In this document: positions 1 through 42,703 of the stretch, in pieces
Layout: each line of letters starts with the position of its first letter
Numbering within the stretch: position 1 is the first letter of the stretch
Source: Halarcobacter sp.
Lineage (GTDB): Bacteria; Campylobacterota; Campylobacteria; Campylobacterales; Arcobacteraceae
Direction: 5' to 3'
NCBI GenBank assembly: GCA_048571215.1
Contig: CP182352.1
Location: 384,001-448,000 of the forward strand
DNA: 64,000 bases
Notes under the pieces: generated by a model
The model's input: the letters and a program-made list of their open reading frames with translations, nothing else
What the model was told of the DNA's origin: nothing
Databases searched by the model: none
Translations under genes and position numbers: made by a program

Positions 1-508
1 ATTGTAATTCAAACTCTTTTATCAAATAGCTTTTATCTTTTTTTGCTTTTAAAGCAGCTATATGGTTTTTAGTTATAACTTGTTGTTTAATAATTAATTT
101 ATATCCAGAAATAAGCTCTTTTAATTCTTCTTCTATGGTATCTACAATAGGTATTTTAATATCTTTATCTTTAGCTGTAACAATCATTTTAGATAAAAGC
201 TGTGCATCTTTTATATCATTTTTATTTCTATATCCCATTACTTTTGCAAAGCTAGCACTTTTTTTAGGATTTACTATAAAGCTTTTTATATTTTTGTTTG
301 CACAAAACTGTTTTAAAAGAAATGAATAATTAGCTGTTGGTTCATAAACAAATACTAATTTATCTATCTCTTTTTTATAAAGCTTTTTTAGTTTAGAGTA
401 CAAACTTTTTATTCCATTTAAACTATTATCAATAATTAAATCTAAATCATTTATTGGAATATAAACATTAATTGTTGACTTACTTACATCTAATCCGATA
501 GAATACAT
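1..508 (-). CDS. IS110-family recombinase (copy 1), N-terminal part; runs off the window start
   Basis: 1-783 is near-identical to 41341-42123 (offset 41340; differences seen at positions 1 and 301). ATG at 508, same MYSIGLDVSK start as the copy 2 ORF. Confidence 0.95.
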   Translation of the reverse strand, partial: MYSIGLDVSKSTINVYIPINDLDLIIDNSLNGIKSLYSKLKKLYKKEIDKLVFVYEPTANYSFLLKQFCANKNIKSFIVNPKKSASFAKVMGYRNKNDIKDAQLLSKMIVTAKDKDIKIPIVDTIEEELKELISGYKLIIKQQVITKNHIAALKAKKDKSYLIKEFELQ

Positions 509-540
509 TTCTAGAACCTTTATTTTAGGATAAAGAGTTC

Positions 541-760
541 GTTAGGGTAGGATTTCTCCTACCTGATAATTGTTATACAAACTTTAGACTTATAAAATAC
601 GAACTAGTTATAAAACTGTTCTTGTTGCCACTCAAATTTAAAGTATAACTATCAAACTCGCCATCAAGCTAATTATAAATTATTTTTTATAATTGCTTTA
701 GTTCCGCAACGATATATTATCTTTCAAACTCTTTGGAAATATATTAACTATATTCCCTTA
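541..760 (-). ncRNA. Putative IS110 bridge RNA (copy 1); ends approximate
   Basis: Minus-strand TATAAT at 766-771. Two internal loops carry target-matching (700-711, 655-662) and donor-matching (624-631, 588-594) segments, each capped by a hairpin. Confidence 0.8.
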
Positions 761-777
761 AATGTATTATATAAGTT

Positions 778-40400: not shown

Positions 40401-40628
40401 TTAAGTGTTAATGATCGAGATTATTTAATATTAACATCACTTGAGATGTTTGATGAGGTGATATTTAATGAATATGAAAAGGATATTTACTCTAAAATTG
40501 AGATTCAGAATAGTGAACGAAAAATTGAAAAAATCGTTTCTTTTAATTATAGAATGAAAATAAATTTTAAAAAAGTGAATTCTTATAAATATAATTTTAA
40601 AGATAAAACAAATACTCAGGTTTTCTAG
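37425..40628 (+). CDS. Large hypothetical membrane protein (N-terminal TM helices, large soluble region)
   Basis: 1067-aa ORF, TTG start after AAAGGA; about four hydrophobic segments in the first 190 aa. Confidence 0.8.
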   Translation: MIGKLFDSLSYQIEKNLTESTYINETYIENKWNIIEKLVIRWTKQPILTVLLLIIIFISNSLFLFLLRNILIKESYSWNQSWEKLVNWQNDFLSTQITIIALIFPLVIGFVGFLIQNKSSQRALWKIYMYYSGVKVLGFSSITLSGVILLVQFIKPWMDYQLEVAITINILCWLLFNISLLAWFLYATFDFISTEKRSKVILRYCINEMIINEIKYRLANLLPQTIFGNSEDTHDRPKVYPFHLFSEKYQDYCRIEFSNYKYVYDIDFNFLKFAGVIWKFRNKNFKEEAPTLYFPVSGISKAKIYNLAYSENTNINFLEKFLIKTAYSFRRTSRLEESNFDSIIHALISNVEDSLKEKDERLFEIAIDELAYWIIQIFKTASFKNDNKELDNWILLPDGNFFGRSIIQNLSREFYKINKKSIDLLSYSDIYFRKMCYFNLKVFGFKNDVLASKVIEELLQNHYYSWSLLMKKINNLENNEEYIKTYIGSWESWTSSSKINLKDEKSIDYLIDIYLEHLQTSSKHIISALNVNNEKSILLSVDMLIYWNYQAFHMFNKSRNEYIWQSKILVPSVLKNNFDSEYINKEKLCEYIFPNNSKDDKTALVVSFENLWKQICIITGIYIFYKHKEVFSENIKKVVLSLLKQERIFSNDMTILPQRNKEIAVSSIFECYLFNAYPLRDILKSGNPAYLIELFERLSKESMISNRVYTDRSIELSSLLQTIKCFMIGNSTKIWNLSKELNDFIKSPLFEYEARESFIREINSFKYLENIDDKLFDDVKLLFGDENIEQKVENYKTSIDAIIKDITDYHNEVLVNTSIDNQKVDEMNRYFSNEIFNDLDYMPYSLFSNIKFDSLEQKFLKKININFDKKFLVKDINFIDINKYFEHENKYTVTDIRQEIVSSIFDKFLTEINIKEEQSFDNIENLLNKIIDNAQKLIKKDFVPIVFVCSNEIKWMLENETNDKQFKDILIEKFDNKEENYICHIDNIEAYELSVNDRDYLILTSLEMFDEVIFNEYEKDIYSKIEIQNSERKIEKIVSFNYRMKINFKKVNSYKYNFKDKTNTQVF

Positions 40629-40730
40629 TTTTGGAATAAAAGGTGTATAAGGACATTTCCATTTTTGATTTGTTTAGATTTCTAATTTCTATTTAGTAAA
40701 TTTACAAATGATAGTTTGAACTTTTTTTTT

Positions 40731-40829
40731 CCAGACTTTGATGAAGCCGGAAGTTTTGAAATAATTTTCGGAAAAGCCTGAGGACTGTTTGAGGAGAGAA
40801 AAGTCCTAAACGGACTTTTTCGACGAGTT
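40731..40829. repeat. Left part of the palindromic element split by IS110 copy 2
   Basis: CCAGACTTTGATGAAG and AGTTTTGAAATAATTTTC are inverted partners of 42130-42179 on the far side of the IS. Confidence 0.85.
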
Positions 40830-40876
40830 GCCACCTTAAAAGAATATAAAAATTCCATATAAAATTTATAATAAAA

Positions 40877-41848
40877 TTAAATTTTTTCTGAATCATATGG
40901 TACATTATTTTTATATACGGCATGAGCAATAACTAATAGTTTTCTCATAATTGCTACTTGTATAACTGTAGTATGTTTTCCATTTTCTTTTAGTCTATCA
41001 TAAAACTTTCTTAATCTTTCGTTATTTCTTATTGATGTCATTGCTGGCATAAACAAAGTACCTCTACATATTTTTGAACCTGCTTTTGATATTTTTGTTT
41101 TTCCATTAACTGATATACCTGAACTTTTTTCTATTGGATCTAATCCTGCTAAAGATACTATCTGTTTTTGATTAGCATTTTTATATTGAATAAAATGTAT
41201 AAGTAATACAATTGAAGATATTTCTCCTATACCATCAATTGTTTGCAAATTATTAAATGATTGTTGAAGTTTCTCATCTTTTTTTATGATTGATTTTATT
41301 TTTTTGATAATTTTTTGTTCTTGTTTTTTTAAAAATTGATTTTGTAATTCAAACTCTTTTATCAAATAGCTTTTATCTTTTTTTGCTTTTAAAGCAGCTA
41401 TATGGTTTTTAGTTATAACTTGTTGTTTAATAATTAATTTATATCCAGAAATAAGCTCTTTTAATTCTTCTTCTATGGTATCTACAATAGGTATTTTAAT
41501 ATCTTTATCTTTAGCTGTAACAATCATTTTAGATAAAAGCTGTGCATCTTTTATATCATTTTTATTTCTATATCCCATTACTTTTGCAAAGCTAGCACTT
41601 TTTTTAGGATTTACTATAAAGCTTTTTATATTTTTGTTTGAACAAAACTGTTTTAAAAGAAATGAATAATTAGCTGTTGGTTCATAAACAAATACTAATT
41701 TATCTATCTCTTTTTTATAAAGCTTTTTTAGTTTAGAGTACAAACTTTTTATTCCATTTAAACTATTATCAATAATTAAATCTAAATCATTTATTGGAAT
41801 ATAAACATTAATTGTTGACTTACTTACATCTAATCCGATAGAATACAT
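40877..41848 (-). CDS. IS110-family DEDD recombinase/transposase
   Basis: GLDVSK, YEPT, KNDIKDA (DEDD); TIDGIG, AGLDP..KSSG, ISKAG, AIMRKL. Confidence 0.96.
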   Translation of the reverse strand: MYSIGLDVSKSTINVYIPINDLDLIIDNSLNGIKSLYSKLKKLYKKEIDKLVFVYEPTANYSFLLKQFCSNKNIKSFIVNPKKSASFAKVMGYRNKNDIKDAQLLSKMIVTAKDKDIKIPIVDTIEEELKELISGYKLIIKQQVITKNHIAALKAKKDKSYLIKEFELQNQFLKKQEQKIIKKIKSIIKKDEKLQQSFNNLQTIDGIGEISSIVLLIHFIQYKNANQKQIVSLAGLDPIEKSSGISVNGKTKISKAGSKICRGTLFMPAMTSIRNNERLRKFYDRLKENGKHTTVIQVAIMRKLLVIAHAVYKNNVPYDSEKI

Positions 41849-41880
41849 TTCTAGAACCTTTATTTTAGGATAAAGAGTTC

Positions 41881-42100
41881 GTTAGGGTAGGATTTCTCCT
41901 ACCTGATAATTGTTATACAAACTTTAGACTTATAAAATACGAACTAGTTATAAAACTGTTCTTGTTGCCACTCAAATTTAAAGTATAACTATCAAACTCG
42001 CCATCAAGCTAATTATAAATTATTTTTTATAATTGCTTTAGTTCCGCAACGATATATTATCTTTCAAACTCTTTGGAAATATATTAACTATATTCCCTTA
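41881..42100 (-). ncRNA. Putative IS110 bridge RNA (copy 2); ends approximate
   Basis: Identical to copy 1. Guides at 42040-42051, 41995-42002, 41964-41971 and 41928-41934. Confidence 0.8.
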
Positions 42101-42117
42101 AATGTATTATATAAGTT

Positions 42118-42245
42118 CCGCAAGGCAGAAAACTTATTTTAAAACTAGAGGGGAGCTTTGCCTTCATCAACTCGTCTGGTTGCTTTTTGTCTTACTTTTT
42201 ACAATTAAAAAGTGAGAAAGCGAAGAGGTTTATCTCTTCAAGAGC
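42118..42245. repeat. Right part of the palindromic element split by IS110 copy 2
   Basis: Pairs with 40731-40829; homologous in inverted orientation to 3921-4040. Confidence 0.85.
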
Positions 42246-42703
42246 GTAAAATAAAGTGCAATATAAATCTGGAAACAAGATATTAATAGTATATATCAAT
42301 AAGAAGATTTATATTCTATAGTTGCTAAACTTATCGATATTTACAACTAGTAATTAAATGTATTAATAGGAGATAATAATTAATGAAATTTGGATTTTAA
42401 GTGGTCACGATTAAATAAAAAGGTGTTAGACACCATTTTCTTGTAAGCTCCTACGAATAAAGTTTTTTTTGCTTTGATTTATTTTGAAATCTCACTCAAA
42501 AAAACAATTCACAGAAAACCCAATACAATAAAATAATGATTTACTTATTTAATCTCATAATAAAATAATTAAATAAAAATTCAAACTATCGATATGCATA
42601 ATAATTAATAAAATATTAAGTAAAAAACTAGTTAATTAATTTTATTTTATATACCTTAGGTATATAATAGCTAAATATAGGATTAAAAACAGAAGGAACG
42701 ATT

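What the first reader, a model, noticed from the sequence alone, without database searches (positions are those of the whole stretch)
41849..42117. IS110 left end encodes a complete bridge RNA whose four guides match the actual donor and target sites
Seen: removing the IS at its AGTT junctions gives, in IS orientation, target TTGCGG-AACT-CGTCG and circle/donor junction GGTGGC-AACT-TATATA. The non-coding end, read on the minus strand from TATAAT at 42106-42111, contains in order: CGUUGCGGAACU (42051-42040, same sense as left target plus core); a hairpin (AAGC.AATTATAAA/TTTATAATTGCTT); GGCGAGUU (42002-41995, antisense to the right target with one G:T); GUGGCAAC (41971-41964, same sense as left donor); a hairpin (GAAC.AGTT/AACTGTTC); and UAUAAGU (41934-41928, antisense to right donor). 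Basal stems (TATC/GATA, TATAC/GTATA) close both loops. Known: this is the target-binding loop / donor-binding loop layout of IS621-type bridge RNAs. Inference: this is an RNA-guided recombinase from a low-GC Campylobacterota host with a 323-aa enzyme. Its core lies within AACT and may be AC rather than the CT of IS621, because the two donor guides overlap only at AC.
Basis: partly seen in the sequence, partly recalled or inferred. Interest (0 to 1): 0.9.

Follow-up and report, generated by a model that had tools for sequence, protein, structure and literature searches.

The report
Bridge-RNA insertion sequence in an Arcobacter relative
This is a small jumping gene of the IS110 family whose non-coding left end encodes a guide ("bridge") RNA that matches both the element's own ends and the spot where it landed; the mechanism is already known from E. 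coli IS621, so this is a well-supported new example, not a new kind of system.

Summary
Window 40826-42113 (minus strand) is a 1288-bp IS110-group element flanked by CT cores. Its 323-aa recombinase aligns end to end with IS621 and keeps the catalytic DEDD and Ser residues.

I added four tests:
- The genome holds 3 near-identical copies (A) and 4 copies of a 63%-identical sister element (B). The B guide loops differ exactly as its target and left end differ.
- Uninterrupted target sites exist in the same genome and in another strain.
- Across about 70 related left ends, every guide covaries with its DNA partner (0 of 10000 shuffles). LD matches LDG 7/7 in 55 of 57 elements.
- The fold is supported: 52 pairs, 31 with compensatory changes, and 96.7% of cells paired against 29-41% when the partners are slid.

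A covariance model built without any A-type sequence finds the A RNA at E 8.6e-21.

The suggested AC core is not supported. Target position 7 varies across the family while CT is conserved, so the core is CT as in IS621.

Expression and activity were not tested. Verdict: a new member of a known kind, of moderate interest.

The parts
40826..42113 (-). IS element body (type A copy A1), 1288 bp, counted from the first base after the left core to the right core CT
   Evidence: Three copies with 1-2 differences. Empty sites in the genome. A contig of run X9 joins 40825 to 42114.
42114..42115 (-). Left copy of the core dinucleotide CT (target-derived); AACT 42114-42117 is shared with the right end by coincidence of target and donor
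40826..40827 (-). Right copy of the core CT (donor-derived)
   Evidence: All 65 unique right ends of the family end in CT
42106..42111 (-). -10 box TATAAT at the tip of the left end, the presumed bridge-RNA promoter element
   Evidence: Read. CGTATAAT/TATATAAT is conserved in the family alignment. No -35 was called in the integrated context.
42075..42097 (-). 5' stem-loop GGGAAUAUA...UAUAUUUCC
   Evidence: MFE fold. Relatives carry a hairpin AUAGC...GCUAU at the same place.
42066..42073 (-). 5' strand of the long-range closing stem AAGAGUUU, pairing with 41873-41880
   Evidence: RNAalifold helix 1, 92.1% of cells paired
41990..42054 (-). Target-binding loop module: basal stem UAUC/GAUA, LTG, inner hairpin 42006-42038, RTG
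42040..42050 (-). Left target guide GUUGCGGAACU, same sense as left target plus core
   Evidence: Identical to the flank in 10/11 (A1), 10/11 (A2) and 11/11 (A3) positions. Family covariation 0/10000.
41997..42002 (-). Right target guide GGCG-AG, antisense to core CT plus CGCC
   Evidence: Pairs with CT-CGTC (A1) or CT-CGCT (A2, A3) with one G:T each. Family covariation 0/10000.
41995..41996 (-). Handshake guide UU of the target-binding loop, complementary to donor positions 6-7 (AA)
   Evidence: Family: UU with AA in 27 elements, UC with GA in 11, of 54. Role taken from PMC11208158.
41912..41989 (-). Donor-binding loop module: basal stem GUUAUAC/GUAUAAC, second stem, LDG, inner hairpin 41941-41961, RDG
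41964..41971 (-). Left donor guide GUGGCAAC, same sense as the right-end tip GTGGCAA + C
   Evidence: LD equals LDG 7/7 in 55 of 57 elements, with five covarying variants
41929..41934 (-). Right donor guide UAUA-AG, antisense to core CT plus TATA of the left-end tip
   Evidence: Variants CTTATA, CTCGTA, CTCATA, TTTGTA and CTAGTA covary with the RDG
41927..41928 (-). Handshake guide UC of the donor-binding loop
   Evidence: In A only the U can pair, with target A7.
41886..41903 (-). 3' hairpin GGUAGGA/UCCUACC downstream of the donor loop
   Evidence: All 7 pairs show compensatory changes
41873..41880 (-). 3' strand of the closing stem GAACUCUU
40877..41848 (-). Recombinase gene, 323 aa (D7, E56, D98, D101, S243)
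   Evidence: PF01548 and PF02371. Full-length alignment to IS621, E 1.4e-29, with catalytic residues aligned.
40828..40834 (-). Left donor (LD) GTGGCAA at the tip of the 51-nt right end
1..773 (-). Part of a second type A copy (A3) that runs off the window start; its bridge RNA core lies at 570-716

Best explanation
Window 40826-42113 (minus strand) is an intact, recently active insertion sequence of the IS110 group that works like E. coli IS621.

Its 265-nt left end is transcribed in the sense of the recombinase gene, starting behind the TATAAT at the element tip. The product is a bridge RNA of roughly 220 nt. One internal loop reads the landing site (consensus CGTTGCGGAA-CT-CGCY). It uses a same-sense left guide that pairs with the bottom strand and an antisense right guide that pairs with the top strand. 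The second internal loop reads the joined ends of the excised element (GTGGCAA-CT-TATA) in the same way. Both loops cover a shared CT core. The 323-aa DEDD/Ser recombinase, guided by this RNA, exchanges strands next to the core and inserts the element without other duplication.

The landing site lies just upstream of a hairpin in a ~600-bp non-coding repeat unit of the host.

Shown here: the element boundaries, the guide-DNA matches, guide-DNA covariation across the family, the conserved RNA fold and its strand, and the catalytic residues. Inferred by homology with IS621: transcription, RNA binding, the chemistry and order of strand exchange, and the circular intermediate.
For: 1. Protein. PF01548 (E 4.3e-14) and PF02371 (E 9.6e-18) both hit. 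Residues 4-321 align to IS621 transposase 8WT6 at E 1.4e-29 and to ISCro4 9T56 at E 3.1e-28. D7, E56, D98, D101 and S243 sit opposite IS621 D11, E60, D102, D105 and S241.

2. Boundaries.
- The three A copies differ at 1-2 of 1288 positions and lie in related flanks.
- There are 2 uninterrupted sites, CGTTGCGGGA-CT-CGCTAAAAG, in the genome.
- A contig of run X9 bridges 40825 to 42114.

3. Guides of A.
- The LTG is identical to the flank in 10-11 of 11 positions.
- The RTG pairs with CT+4 with one G:T.
- The LDG equals the right-end tip.
- The RDG is antisense to CT+TATA.
- The 10-mer shared by LTG and flank is expected 0.00 times by chance.

4. Natural swap. Sister element B (4 identical copies, 63.4% aa identity) has the same stems. 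Its LTG is GGGUGGUU, its RTG is GUAAAGA-AG and its RDG is UACG-AG. These fit its own target GGGATGG-TT-TCTTTGC (about 20 empty copies) and its left end CGTA.

5. Family covariation.
- RTG-RT: 4.95 of 7 pairs in 39 cognate pairs against 3.05 +/- 0.20 shuffled, 0/10000. At class level 5.06 against 2.30, with the cognate best in 10 of 13 classes.
- LTG-LT: 5.52 of 9 against 3.67 +/- 0.17, 0/10000, 54 pairs.
- LDG-LD: 7/7 in 55 of 57, five variants.
- RDG: five covarying variants.
- The target-loop handshake guide fits donor positions 6-7 in 38 of 54.

6. Fold.
- 52 consensus pairs, 31 with compensatory changes.
- 96.7% of cells are paired against 29-41% when the 3' partners are slid by 1-3 columns.
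- 0/500 shuffles reach the observed values.
- 245 G:U cells against 20 A:C cells place the RNA on the IS-sense strand: 96.7% paired there, 84.2% on the opposite strand.

7. Leave-out test. A covariance model built from 32 relatives with no A-type sequence hits window 41910-42056 (-) over its full length at 107.4 bits, E 8.6e-21. It hits exactly the 7 IS copies in the 3.6-Mb genome.

8. Layout. A 5' stem-loop is followed by a variable first loop and a conserved second loop, which equals the published IS110 consensus (PMC11208160, passages).
Against: - No transcript, RNA-protein binding, circle junction or recombination was observed here.
- Only the -10 box is evident. The consensus promoter scan does not call a promoter at 42106-42111 in the integrated context. 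By my reading the right end offers no good -35 either.
- Rfam 15 gives no match. I could not tell whether it holds a bridge-RNA family at all.
- The LDG is mismatched at the second core base (A opposite the position of T9).
- The handshake guide UU can also pair with the target's own AA. In IS621 such cognate pairing locks the complex (PMC11208158).
- L012, which carries the same RTG, sits at a site whose right target (CCTA) fits poorly.
- At class level the cognate left target is the best-scoring one for only 11 of 41 LTG classes. The LTG register differs by one base between subfamilies.
- The related elements are kin, so the shuffle tests overstate independence.
Confidence: 0.9

Rival explanations
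1. The element and its RNA are as described, but the crossover core is AC (positions 7-8) rather than CT.
For: In copy A the perfect matches of LDG (GUGGCAAC) and of RDG plus the next U (UAUAAGU) overlap only at AC. All 66 donors carry A at position 7.
Against: - Target position 7 is free across the family (A 17, C 24, T 8, G 4 of 53), while 46 of 54 left junctions and 65 of 65 right ends have CT.
- In B the target is GG-TT and the donor AA-CT, so position 7 differs between the partners.
- The U after the RDG sits at the handshake-guide position of IS621.
- In a subfamily the LDG reads GUGGCAACU, covering CT.
Confidence: 0.03
2. The guide-like strings act at the DNA level, as subterminal protein-binding repeats or copies of the ends, and no guide RNA is involved.
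For: No RNA evidence was obtained, and no full promoter was called.
Against: - Eight helices are kept by compensatory changes: 31 of 52 pairs, and 96.7% of cells paired against 29-41% when slid.
- There is a strong strand asymmetry: 245 G:U against 20 A:C cells. Double-stranded DNA sites would not show this.
- The recombinase is a full-length homologue of IS621, whose RNA dependence is established (PMC11208160).
Confidence: 0.03
3. The RNA and enzyme are relics. The copies are fixed and no longer move, and the guide matches only record a past insertion.
For: Only 3 copies, and few further sites: 4 unoccupied sites within 3 mismatches of 15.
Against: - The copies differ at only 1-2 of 1288 positions, the reading frame is open, and all five catalytic residues are present.
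- In run X9 the element's contig has depth 219.9 against 21-55 for flank contigs, and an uninterrupted site is present as well.
- Near-identical elements occur in other assemblies: L042 at 97% and L012, L043 at 83% aa identity.
Confidence: 0.04

Closest known systems
IS621 (E. coli) recombinase and its 177-nt bridge RNA (Durrant et al. 2024, PMC11208160; Hiraizumi et al. 2024, PMC11208158)
   Same: - IS110 group, with a long left end and a short right end.
- DEDD RuvC-like domain plus Tnp domain with catalytic Ser, aligned over the full length at E 1.4e-29.
- RNA in the left end behind a -10 box at the element tip.
- 5' stem-loop, then a variable target-binding loop, then a conserved donor-binding loop.
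- Left guides pair with the bottom strand and right guides with the top strand.
- CT core, a 4-nt RTG, and handshake-guide positions 3' of the core complement.
- Insertion into a host repeat.
   Different: - No nucleotide similarity was detected to any Rfam model, and the protein is only distantly related.
- The RNA is enclosed by an extra long-range stem (42066-42073 with 41873-41880) and carries a further covarying 3' hairpin (41886-41903). I did not check whether IS621 has counterparts.
- The LDG is mismatched at the second core base.
- Donor and target share AACT, so the handshake guide UU fits both cognate and non-cognate DNA.
- No recognisable -35 in the right end.
- AT-rich host of the Campylobacterota.
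ISCro4 bridge recombinase (PDB 9T56)
   Same: Full-length homologue (E 3.1e-28); a bridge recombinase.
   Different: Distant in sequence. Its RNA was not compared here.
REP-targeting IS110 elements ISPpu9 / ISPpu10 of Pseudomonas putida (PMC12288879 and bioRxiv 10.64898/2026.03.19.712850, search listing and abstracts only)
   Same: All copies sit in copies of one conserved intergenic repeat of the host.
   Different: The repeat here is a ~600-bp unit that often lies in tandem, not a short REP. Two sister elements, and relatives in other species, use different positions of the same unit.
IS1111-group elements with seekRNA / right-end bridge RNA
   Same: Same recombinase family and the same guide logic.
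   Different: In those elements the RNA lies in the right end and long subterminal inverted repeats are present (PMC11208160). Here the RNA is in the left end, and no terminal inverted repeat was found between the tips.

Membership tests
IS110 family, IS110 group insertion sequence | N-terminal DEDD RuvC-like domain | tested here: met
   PF01548 E 4.3e-14. D7, E56, D98 and D101 are aligned to IS621 D11, E60, D102 and D105.
IS110 family, IS110 group insertion sequence | C-terminal Tnp domain with the catalytic serine | tested here: met
   PF02371 E 9.6e-18. S243 is aligned to IS621 S241.
IS110 family, IS110 group insertion sequence | Long non-coding left end, short right end, no terminal inverted repeats | tested here: met
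   Left end 265 nt (42113-41849), right end 51 nt (40876-40826). No inverted repeat joins the two tips among the 25 longest pairs listed.
IS110 family, IS110 group insertion sequence | Site-specific insertion at a short core, with the element flanked by the core on both sides | tested here: met
   Three copies lie in related sites. Empty sites exist with a single CT, and a contig bridges the site.
IS621-type bridge RNA | [quoted passage not shown] | tested here: met
   Consensus fold of 35 left ends: 52 pairs, 31 compensatory, 0/500 shuffles. G:U asymmetry fixes the strand.
IS621-type bridge RNA | First loop: LTG same sense as left target plus core, RTG antisense to core plus right target, covarying with targets | tested here: met
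   Caveats: subfamily-specific register, and the cognate is best in only 11 of 41 LTG classes.
IS621-type bridge RNA | Second loop: LDG and RDG matching the joined right-end/left-end junction, covarying with the ends | tested here: met
   LD equals LDG 7/7 in 55 of 57 elements. Five RD variants covary with the RDG.
IS621-type bridge RNA | Shared core dinucleotide (CT) covered by the guides | tested here: met
   CT at 65 of 65 right ends and 46 of 54 left junctions. LTG, RTG and RDG of A cover CT. The LDG covers C only.
IS621-type bridge RNA | Handshake guides complementary to positions 6-7 of the non-cognate DNA | tested here: inconclusive
   The target-loop guide fits donor positions 6-7 in 38 of 54 elements. 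The donor-loop guide fits only in part, and in A only U:A7 pairs. In A the target-loop guide also fits its own target.
IS621-type bridge RNA | [quoted passage not shown] | not testable with these tools
   Only a conserved -10 box is seen.
Rfam RNA family | Match to a curated covariance model | tested here: not met
   0 matches at E <= 1 in 40600-42400. Whether Rfam 15 contains any bridge-RNA model is unknown to me.

The most novel reading that the evidence does not exclude
The family records, in natural insertions, which strand decides the product.

Sister element B carries a bridge RNA whose LTG is written for a TT core (GGGUGGUU), while its donor core is CT. About 20 empty sites read TT and none CT. 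All 4 insertions have TT at the left junction and CT at the right.

Across the family, non-CT dinucleotides occur at 8 of 54 unique left junctions and at 0 of 65 right junctions. This is what exchange decided by the top strand alone predicts. It fits cleavage after T9 (PMC11208158) and the single-strand, copy-and-paste model of a 2026 preprint (10.64898/2026.08.31.748434, abstract only). Random resolution of a core heteroduplex would not give this pattern.

In addition, A and B would form a natural orthogonal pair of bridge systems in one cell. They use two positions, about 370 bp apart, of the same ~600-bp repeat as landing pads.
Probability: 0.35. Interest if true: 0.55.

Novelty: new member of a known kind. 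Interest (0 to 1): 0.35.

Why it matters
It shows that a bridge RNA can be read from raw sequence alone and then confirmed without experiments. The genome itself supplies the controls: a sister element with swapped guides, empty target sites, and dozens of relatives.

For the field it adds a well-annotated, AT-rich Campylobacterota subfamily of bridge recombinases with many natural guide variants. Two diverged systems coexist in one genome. The subfamily also includes a natural case of unequal donor and target cores. These are useful starting points for orthogonal or AT-rich-target bridge editors, and for testing the strand-exchange model.

It does not change what is known about how these elements work.

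Tried and rejected
- RNA evidence: the look-up of sequencing runs listed no RNA holder of the stretch. The four runs laid were contigs only, so expression, transcript ends and circle junctions could not be examined.
- Rfam: no match to the left end.
- Plasmid collection: no similar DNA.
- Promoter scan: it does not call the TATAAT at 42106-42111, because no -35 lies in the flank. I found no convincing -35 in the right end by eye either, so circle-dependent promoter reconstitution remains an assumption.
- First parse of element B as a TTC duplication with a shifted core. I rejected it because the 18-mer without the extra T has no copy in the genome, while the 19-mer has about 20.
- A single fixed register for the LTG across the family. 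I rejected it because a subfamily ending ...CC|G fits one base further on.
- RNAalifold also pairs GUGG of the LDG with UUAU/UUAC 5' of the RDG (helix 6). None of its 4 pairs has a compensatory change, so I do not count it as structure.
- Earlier notes of this scan: nothing near the finding, and nothing similar by sequence.
- Literature: no paper holds both 'IS110' and 'Arcobacter'. The 7 papers holding 'bridge RNA' and 'Campylobacter' are, by title and abstract, unrelated to such elements.
- The supplementary tables of Durrant et al., which list predicted bridge RNAs, were not opened. This element could be in them.

Full report
**What is at the locus**

Read on the minus strand, the window shows ...GCCTTGCGG-AACT at 42117-42114, followed by TATATAATACATT. 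About 1.29 kb further on it shows ...TTTTAAGGTGGC-AACT at 40829-40826, followed by CGTCGAAAAAG. Between these lies one ORF, 40877-41848 (-), of 323 aa.

The ORF carries both IS110-family domains: PF01548 at E 4.3e-14 and PF02371 at E 9.6e-18. It aligns over residues 4-321 with the IS621 transposase of PDB 8WT6 (E 1.4e-29) and with ISCro4 9T56 (E 3.1e-28). D7, E56, D98, D101 and S243 stand opposite the IS621 catalytic residues D11, E60, D102, D105 and S241. The PDB chain numbering is offset by two.

The left non-coding end is 265 nt and the right end 51 nt. No inverted repeat joins the two tips.

**Check of the observation**

All four guide strings, the TATAAT and the basal stems are at the coordinates given. 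Two hairpin arms were quoted with one A missing.

The 10-mer shared by the left flank and the RNA (TTGCGGAACT) occurs four times in the window. These are two flanks and two guides, because the window also holds part of a second copy at 1-773. The expectation is 0.00 in 100 shuffles. The left end folds 4.17 sd better than its shuffles.

**Copies and empty sites**

The genome is one 3.61-Mb contig. It holds three copies of this element (A1 in the finding, plus A2 and A3), which differ at 1-2 of 1288 positions. It also holds four identical copies of a sister element B, 1300 bp, whose 327-aa protein is 63.4% identical.

The A flanks are:
- A1: CCTTGCGGAA-CT ... CT-CGTCGAAAAAG
- A2: CGTTGCGGGA-CT ... 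CT-CGCTAAAAGAG
- A3: CGTTGCGGAA-CT ... CT-CGCTAAAAGAG

Two uninterrupted sites, CGTTG(C/T)GGGA-CT-CGCTAAAAGAGTGAG, exist elsewhere in the genome. In public run X9, from another strain, one contig joins 40825 directly to 42114, skipping 1288 nt with a 4-nt ambiguity.

The element is therefore 40826-42113. It inserted at a single CT. The four-base identity AACT arises only because this target happens to share AA with the donor.

**Guides of A against its DNA**

- LTG GUUGCGGAACU (42050-42040) equals the left target plus core in 11/11 positions (A3) or 10/11 (A1, A2).
- RTG GGCG-AG (42002-41997) pairs with CT-CGCT or CT-CGTC, with one G:T each.
- LDG GUGGCAAC (41971-41964) equals the right-end tip GTGGCAA-C.
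- RDG UAUA-AG (41934-41929) is antisense to CT-TATA of the joined ends.

This is the arrangement published for IS621: left guides pair with the bottom strand, right guides with the top strand, and both include the core (PMC11208160, passages read).

**A natural guide swap**

Aligned with A, the left end of B keeps every stem and differs in the loops.
- Its LTG is GGGUGGUU, its RTG GUAAAGA-AG, its RDG UACG-AG and its LDG unchanged.
- Its left end begins CGTATAAT and its right end is the same GGTGGCAACT.
- Its flanks are GGGAT(GG/AA)-TT and TCTTTGCTAC.
- The genome has about 20 uninterrupted copies of GGGATGG-TT-TCTTTGCTAC within 3 mismatches. It has none of the 18-mer lacking one T.

So B reads a different target with different target guides, and a different left-end tip with a different RDG. 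It shares the LDG for the shared right end.

**Family-wide covariation**

The recombinase recovered 30 loci from genome contigs and 56 from metagenome contigs. They come from Arcobacter, Sulfurimonas, Sulfurospirillum and other Campylobacterota, at 42-97% aa identity. A profile of the left end matched 75 of the 93 sequences searched. Guide segments were extracted by anchor columns from 72 left ends. Right ends were located by a fuzzy match to the conserved tip.

Results:
- RTG against right target: 39 unique guide/site pairs, 4.95 Watson-Crick pairs of 7 against 3.05 +/- 0.20 after shuffling the sites, 0 of 10000 shuffles as high. At the level of 13 distinct RTGs the figures are 5.06 against 2.30, with the cognate best in 10 of 13.
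- LTG against left target: 54 unique pairs, 5.52 identities of 9 against 3.67 +/- 0.17, taking the best of three registers for real and shuffled pairs alike, 0 of 10000. In register 0 alone the figures are 3.52 against 2.45. The A copies score 8, 8 and 9 of 9 in register 0. The cognate target is the best one for only 11 of 41 LTG classes, and a subfamily needs a register one base further on.
- LDG against right-end tip: 7/7 in 55 of 57 elements. Five tip variants (GTGGCAA, GTGGCGA, GTAGCGA, GTGGTAA, GTGGAAA) are each mirrored in the RNA.
- RDG against left-end tip: CTTATA, CTCGTA, CTCATA, TTTGTA and CTAGTA are each mirrored.
- The two bases after the RTG core complement fit donor positions 6-7 in 38 of 54 elements (UU with AA 27 times, UC with GA 11 times). 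This is the handshake-guide position described for IS621 (PMC11208158, passages).

The elements are relatives of one another, so these shuffles overstate independence. However, the same guide positions change repeatedly, and always together with their DNA partner.

**The RNA fold**

An alignment of 35 distinct left ends gives a consensus of 52 pairs in 8 helices, 31 pairs with compensatory changes. In the pair count, 96.7% of 1802 cells form standard pairs, against 86.0% in column shuffles (0/500) and 29-41% when the 3' partners are slid by 1-3 columns.

Mapped to the window, the helices are:
- closing stem, 42073-42066 with 41880-41873
- target-loop basal stem, 42054-42051 with 41993-41990
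- target-loop hairpin, 42038-42030 with 42016-42006
- donor-loop basal stem, 41989-41983 with 41918-41912
- a second donor stem, 41978-41974 with 41925-41921
- donor hairpin, 41961-41955 with 41948-41941
- a 3' hairpin, 41903-41897 with 41892-41886, in which all seven pairs covary

A helix that pairs part of the LDG with bases 5' of the RDG has no compensatory change, and I do not count it.

G:U cells (245) far outnumber A:C cells (20). The structure therefore exists on the IS-sense strand (96.7% paired) rather than the opposite one (84.2%). This argues for an RNA and against a double-stranded DNA site.

The layout is a 5' stem-loop, then a variable first internal loop, then a conserved second one. 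It is the published IS110 consensus.

**Leave-out test**

A covariance model of the two-loop core (149 positions, 36 pairs) was built from 32 relatives, without A1, L012 or L042. It matches window 41910-42056 (-) and 570-716 (-) over its full length at 107.4 bits, E 8.6e-21. In the whole genome it matches exactly the seven IS copies. In a sample of 151 genomes of the phylum it matches 4, the window's own genome included, in 4 of 38 genera.

**The core**

Junction sequences alone cannot separate AC from CT in A. The family can.
- All 65 unique right ends finish in CT.
- 46 of 54 unique left junctions have CT. The others are TT 5, CA 1, CC 1 and GT 1.
- Target position 7 is unconstrained (A 17, C 24, T 8, G 4), although donors always have A there.

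The dinucleotide shared by donor and target is therefore CT, as in IS621. There T9 is nearly invariant and C8 less so.

**How it most likely works**

By homology, the left end is transcribed from the TATAAT at the element tip. The RNA binds the recombinase. One loop holds the target and the other holds the joined ends of the excised element. Top strands are cut after the core T and exchanged, helped by the handshake bases, and the junction is then resolved.

Not shown here:
- Transcription. Only a -10 box is seen, and the simple scan calls no promoter in the integrated context.
- Binding, chemistry and the circular form.

One point differs from the IS621 rule. In A the handshake bases UU fit the target's own AA as well as the donor's, and in IS621 such cognate pairing locks the complex. 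Since both partners carry AA here, the pairing is the same before and after exchange. I expect this to be neutral, but it is untested.

**The landing site**

Both the A and B targets lie in one ~600-bp non-coding unit. An example is G000:C1:2744150-2744760, with the A site near unit position 135 and the B site near 510. The unit gives 56 BLAST segments across the genome and often stands two or three times in tandem. It has no significant Rfam match (best E 0.026, below the gathering score) and no ORF over 75 aa.

The flanks of relatives L012, L016-L020 and L028 in other Arcobacter genomes resemble parts of the same unit, with insertions at yet other positions. Insertion into host repeats is usual for IS110 elements.

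**Comparison and verdict**

Every sequence-level feature that defines an IS110-group element and an IS621-type bridge RNA was tested and met. The handshake-guide rule is met only in part. Expression and activity could not be tested.

Bridge RNAs were already predicted for 85.7% of IS110-group elements. I found no paper on such elements in Arcobacter or Campylobacterota, and I did not open the published supplementary lists.

This is a new member of a known kind and is convincingly annotated. Its added value lies in the sister pair A/B and in the junction asymmetry described under the novel reading.

Noticed in passing
G000:C1:2744150-2745352 (locus L098 251-1453); in the window the flanks 42118-42243 and about 40700-40825 are a diverged copy: A ~600-bp non-coding unit, often in tandem, gives 56 BLAST segments genome-wide. 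It has several hairpins, no ORF over 75 aa and no significant Rfam match. It carries the landing sites of both IS types, and similar sequence flanks related IS copies in other Arcobacter genomes. Its nature is unknown.
   Followed up: partly
G000:C1:2826477-2827774, 2521362-2522659, 1705059-1706356 and 1467508-1468805 (loci L004-L007): Sister element B: four identical 1300-bp copies and a 327-aa recombinase 63.4% identical to A. It has its own bridge RNA with different target guides and RDG. Its target GGGATGG-TT-TCTTTGCTAC has about 20 empty copies.
   Followed up: yes
Family-wide (loci L004-L097); B copies in the genome: Non-CT dinucleotides occur only at left junctions (8 of 54 unique sites) and never at right junctions (0 of 65). 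In B the target core is TT and the donor core CT, and all four copies have TT on the left and CT on the right. This fits an outcome decided by the top strand. Caveats are selection on the donor core and the way right ends were located.
   Followed up: partly
window 41873-41903 and 42066-42073: The two-loop RNA is enclosed by a conserved long-range stem and followed by a hairpin in which all 7 pairs covary. Whether these belong to the bridge RNA or to the recombinase mRNA leader is open.
   Followed up: partly
window 1-773: Part of a second type A copy (A3) runs off the start of the window. Its left junction is at 774-777.
   Followed up: yes
L023 around the right end (contig JANTGR010000166.1): The right end GGTGGCGACT is followed directly by CGTATC..., which looks like the tip of a left end. 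This could be a tandem copy or a junction of the circular form in a metagenome assembly.
   Followed up: no
L064 (metagenome contig Ga0256827_10077745): Its RTG is identical to that of element B (GUAAAGAAG), but it sits at a right target GTTTCTC that fits the RTG of L033. This could be a recombinant left end or an off-target insertion.
   Followed up: no
L012 (Arcobacter MAG contig NZ_JBNKON010000009.1): An 83%-identical element has the same RTG as A. Its left target fits the LTG (8 of 9), but its right target (CCTA) fits the RTG poorly. This is a natural example of tolerance on the right side.
   Followed up: no
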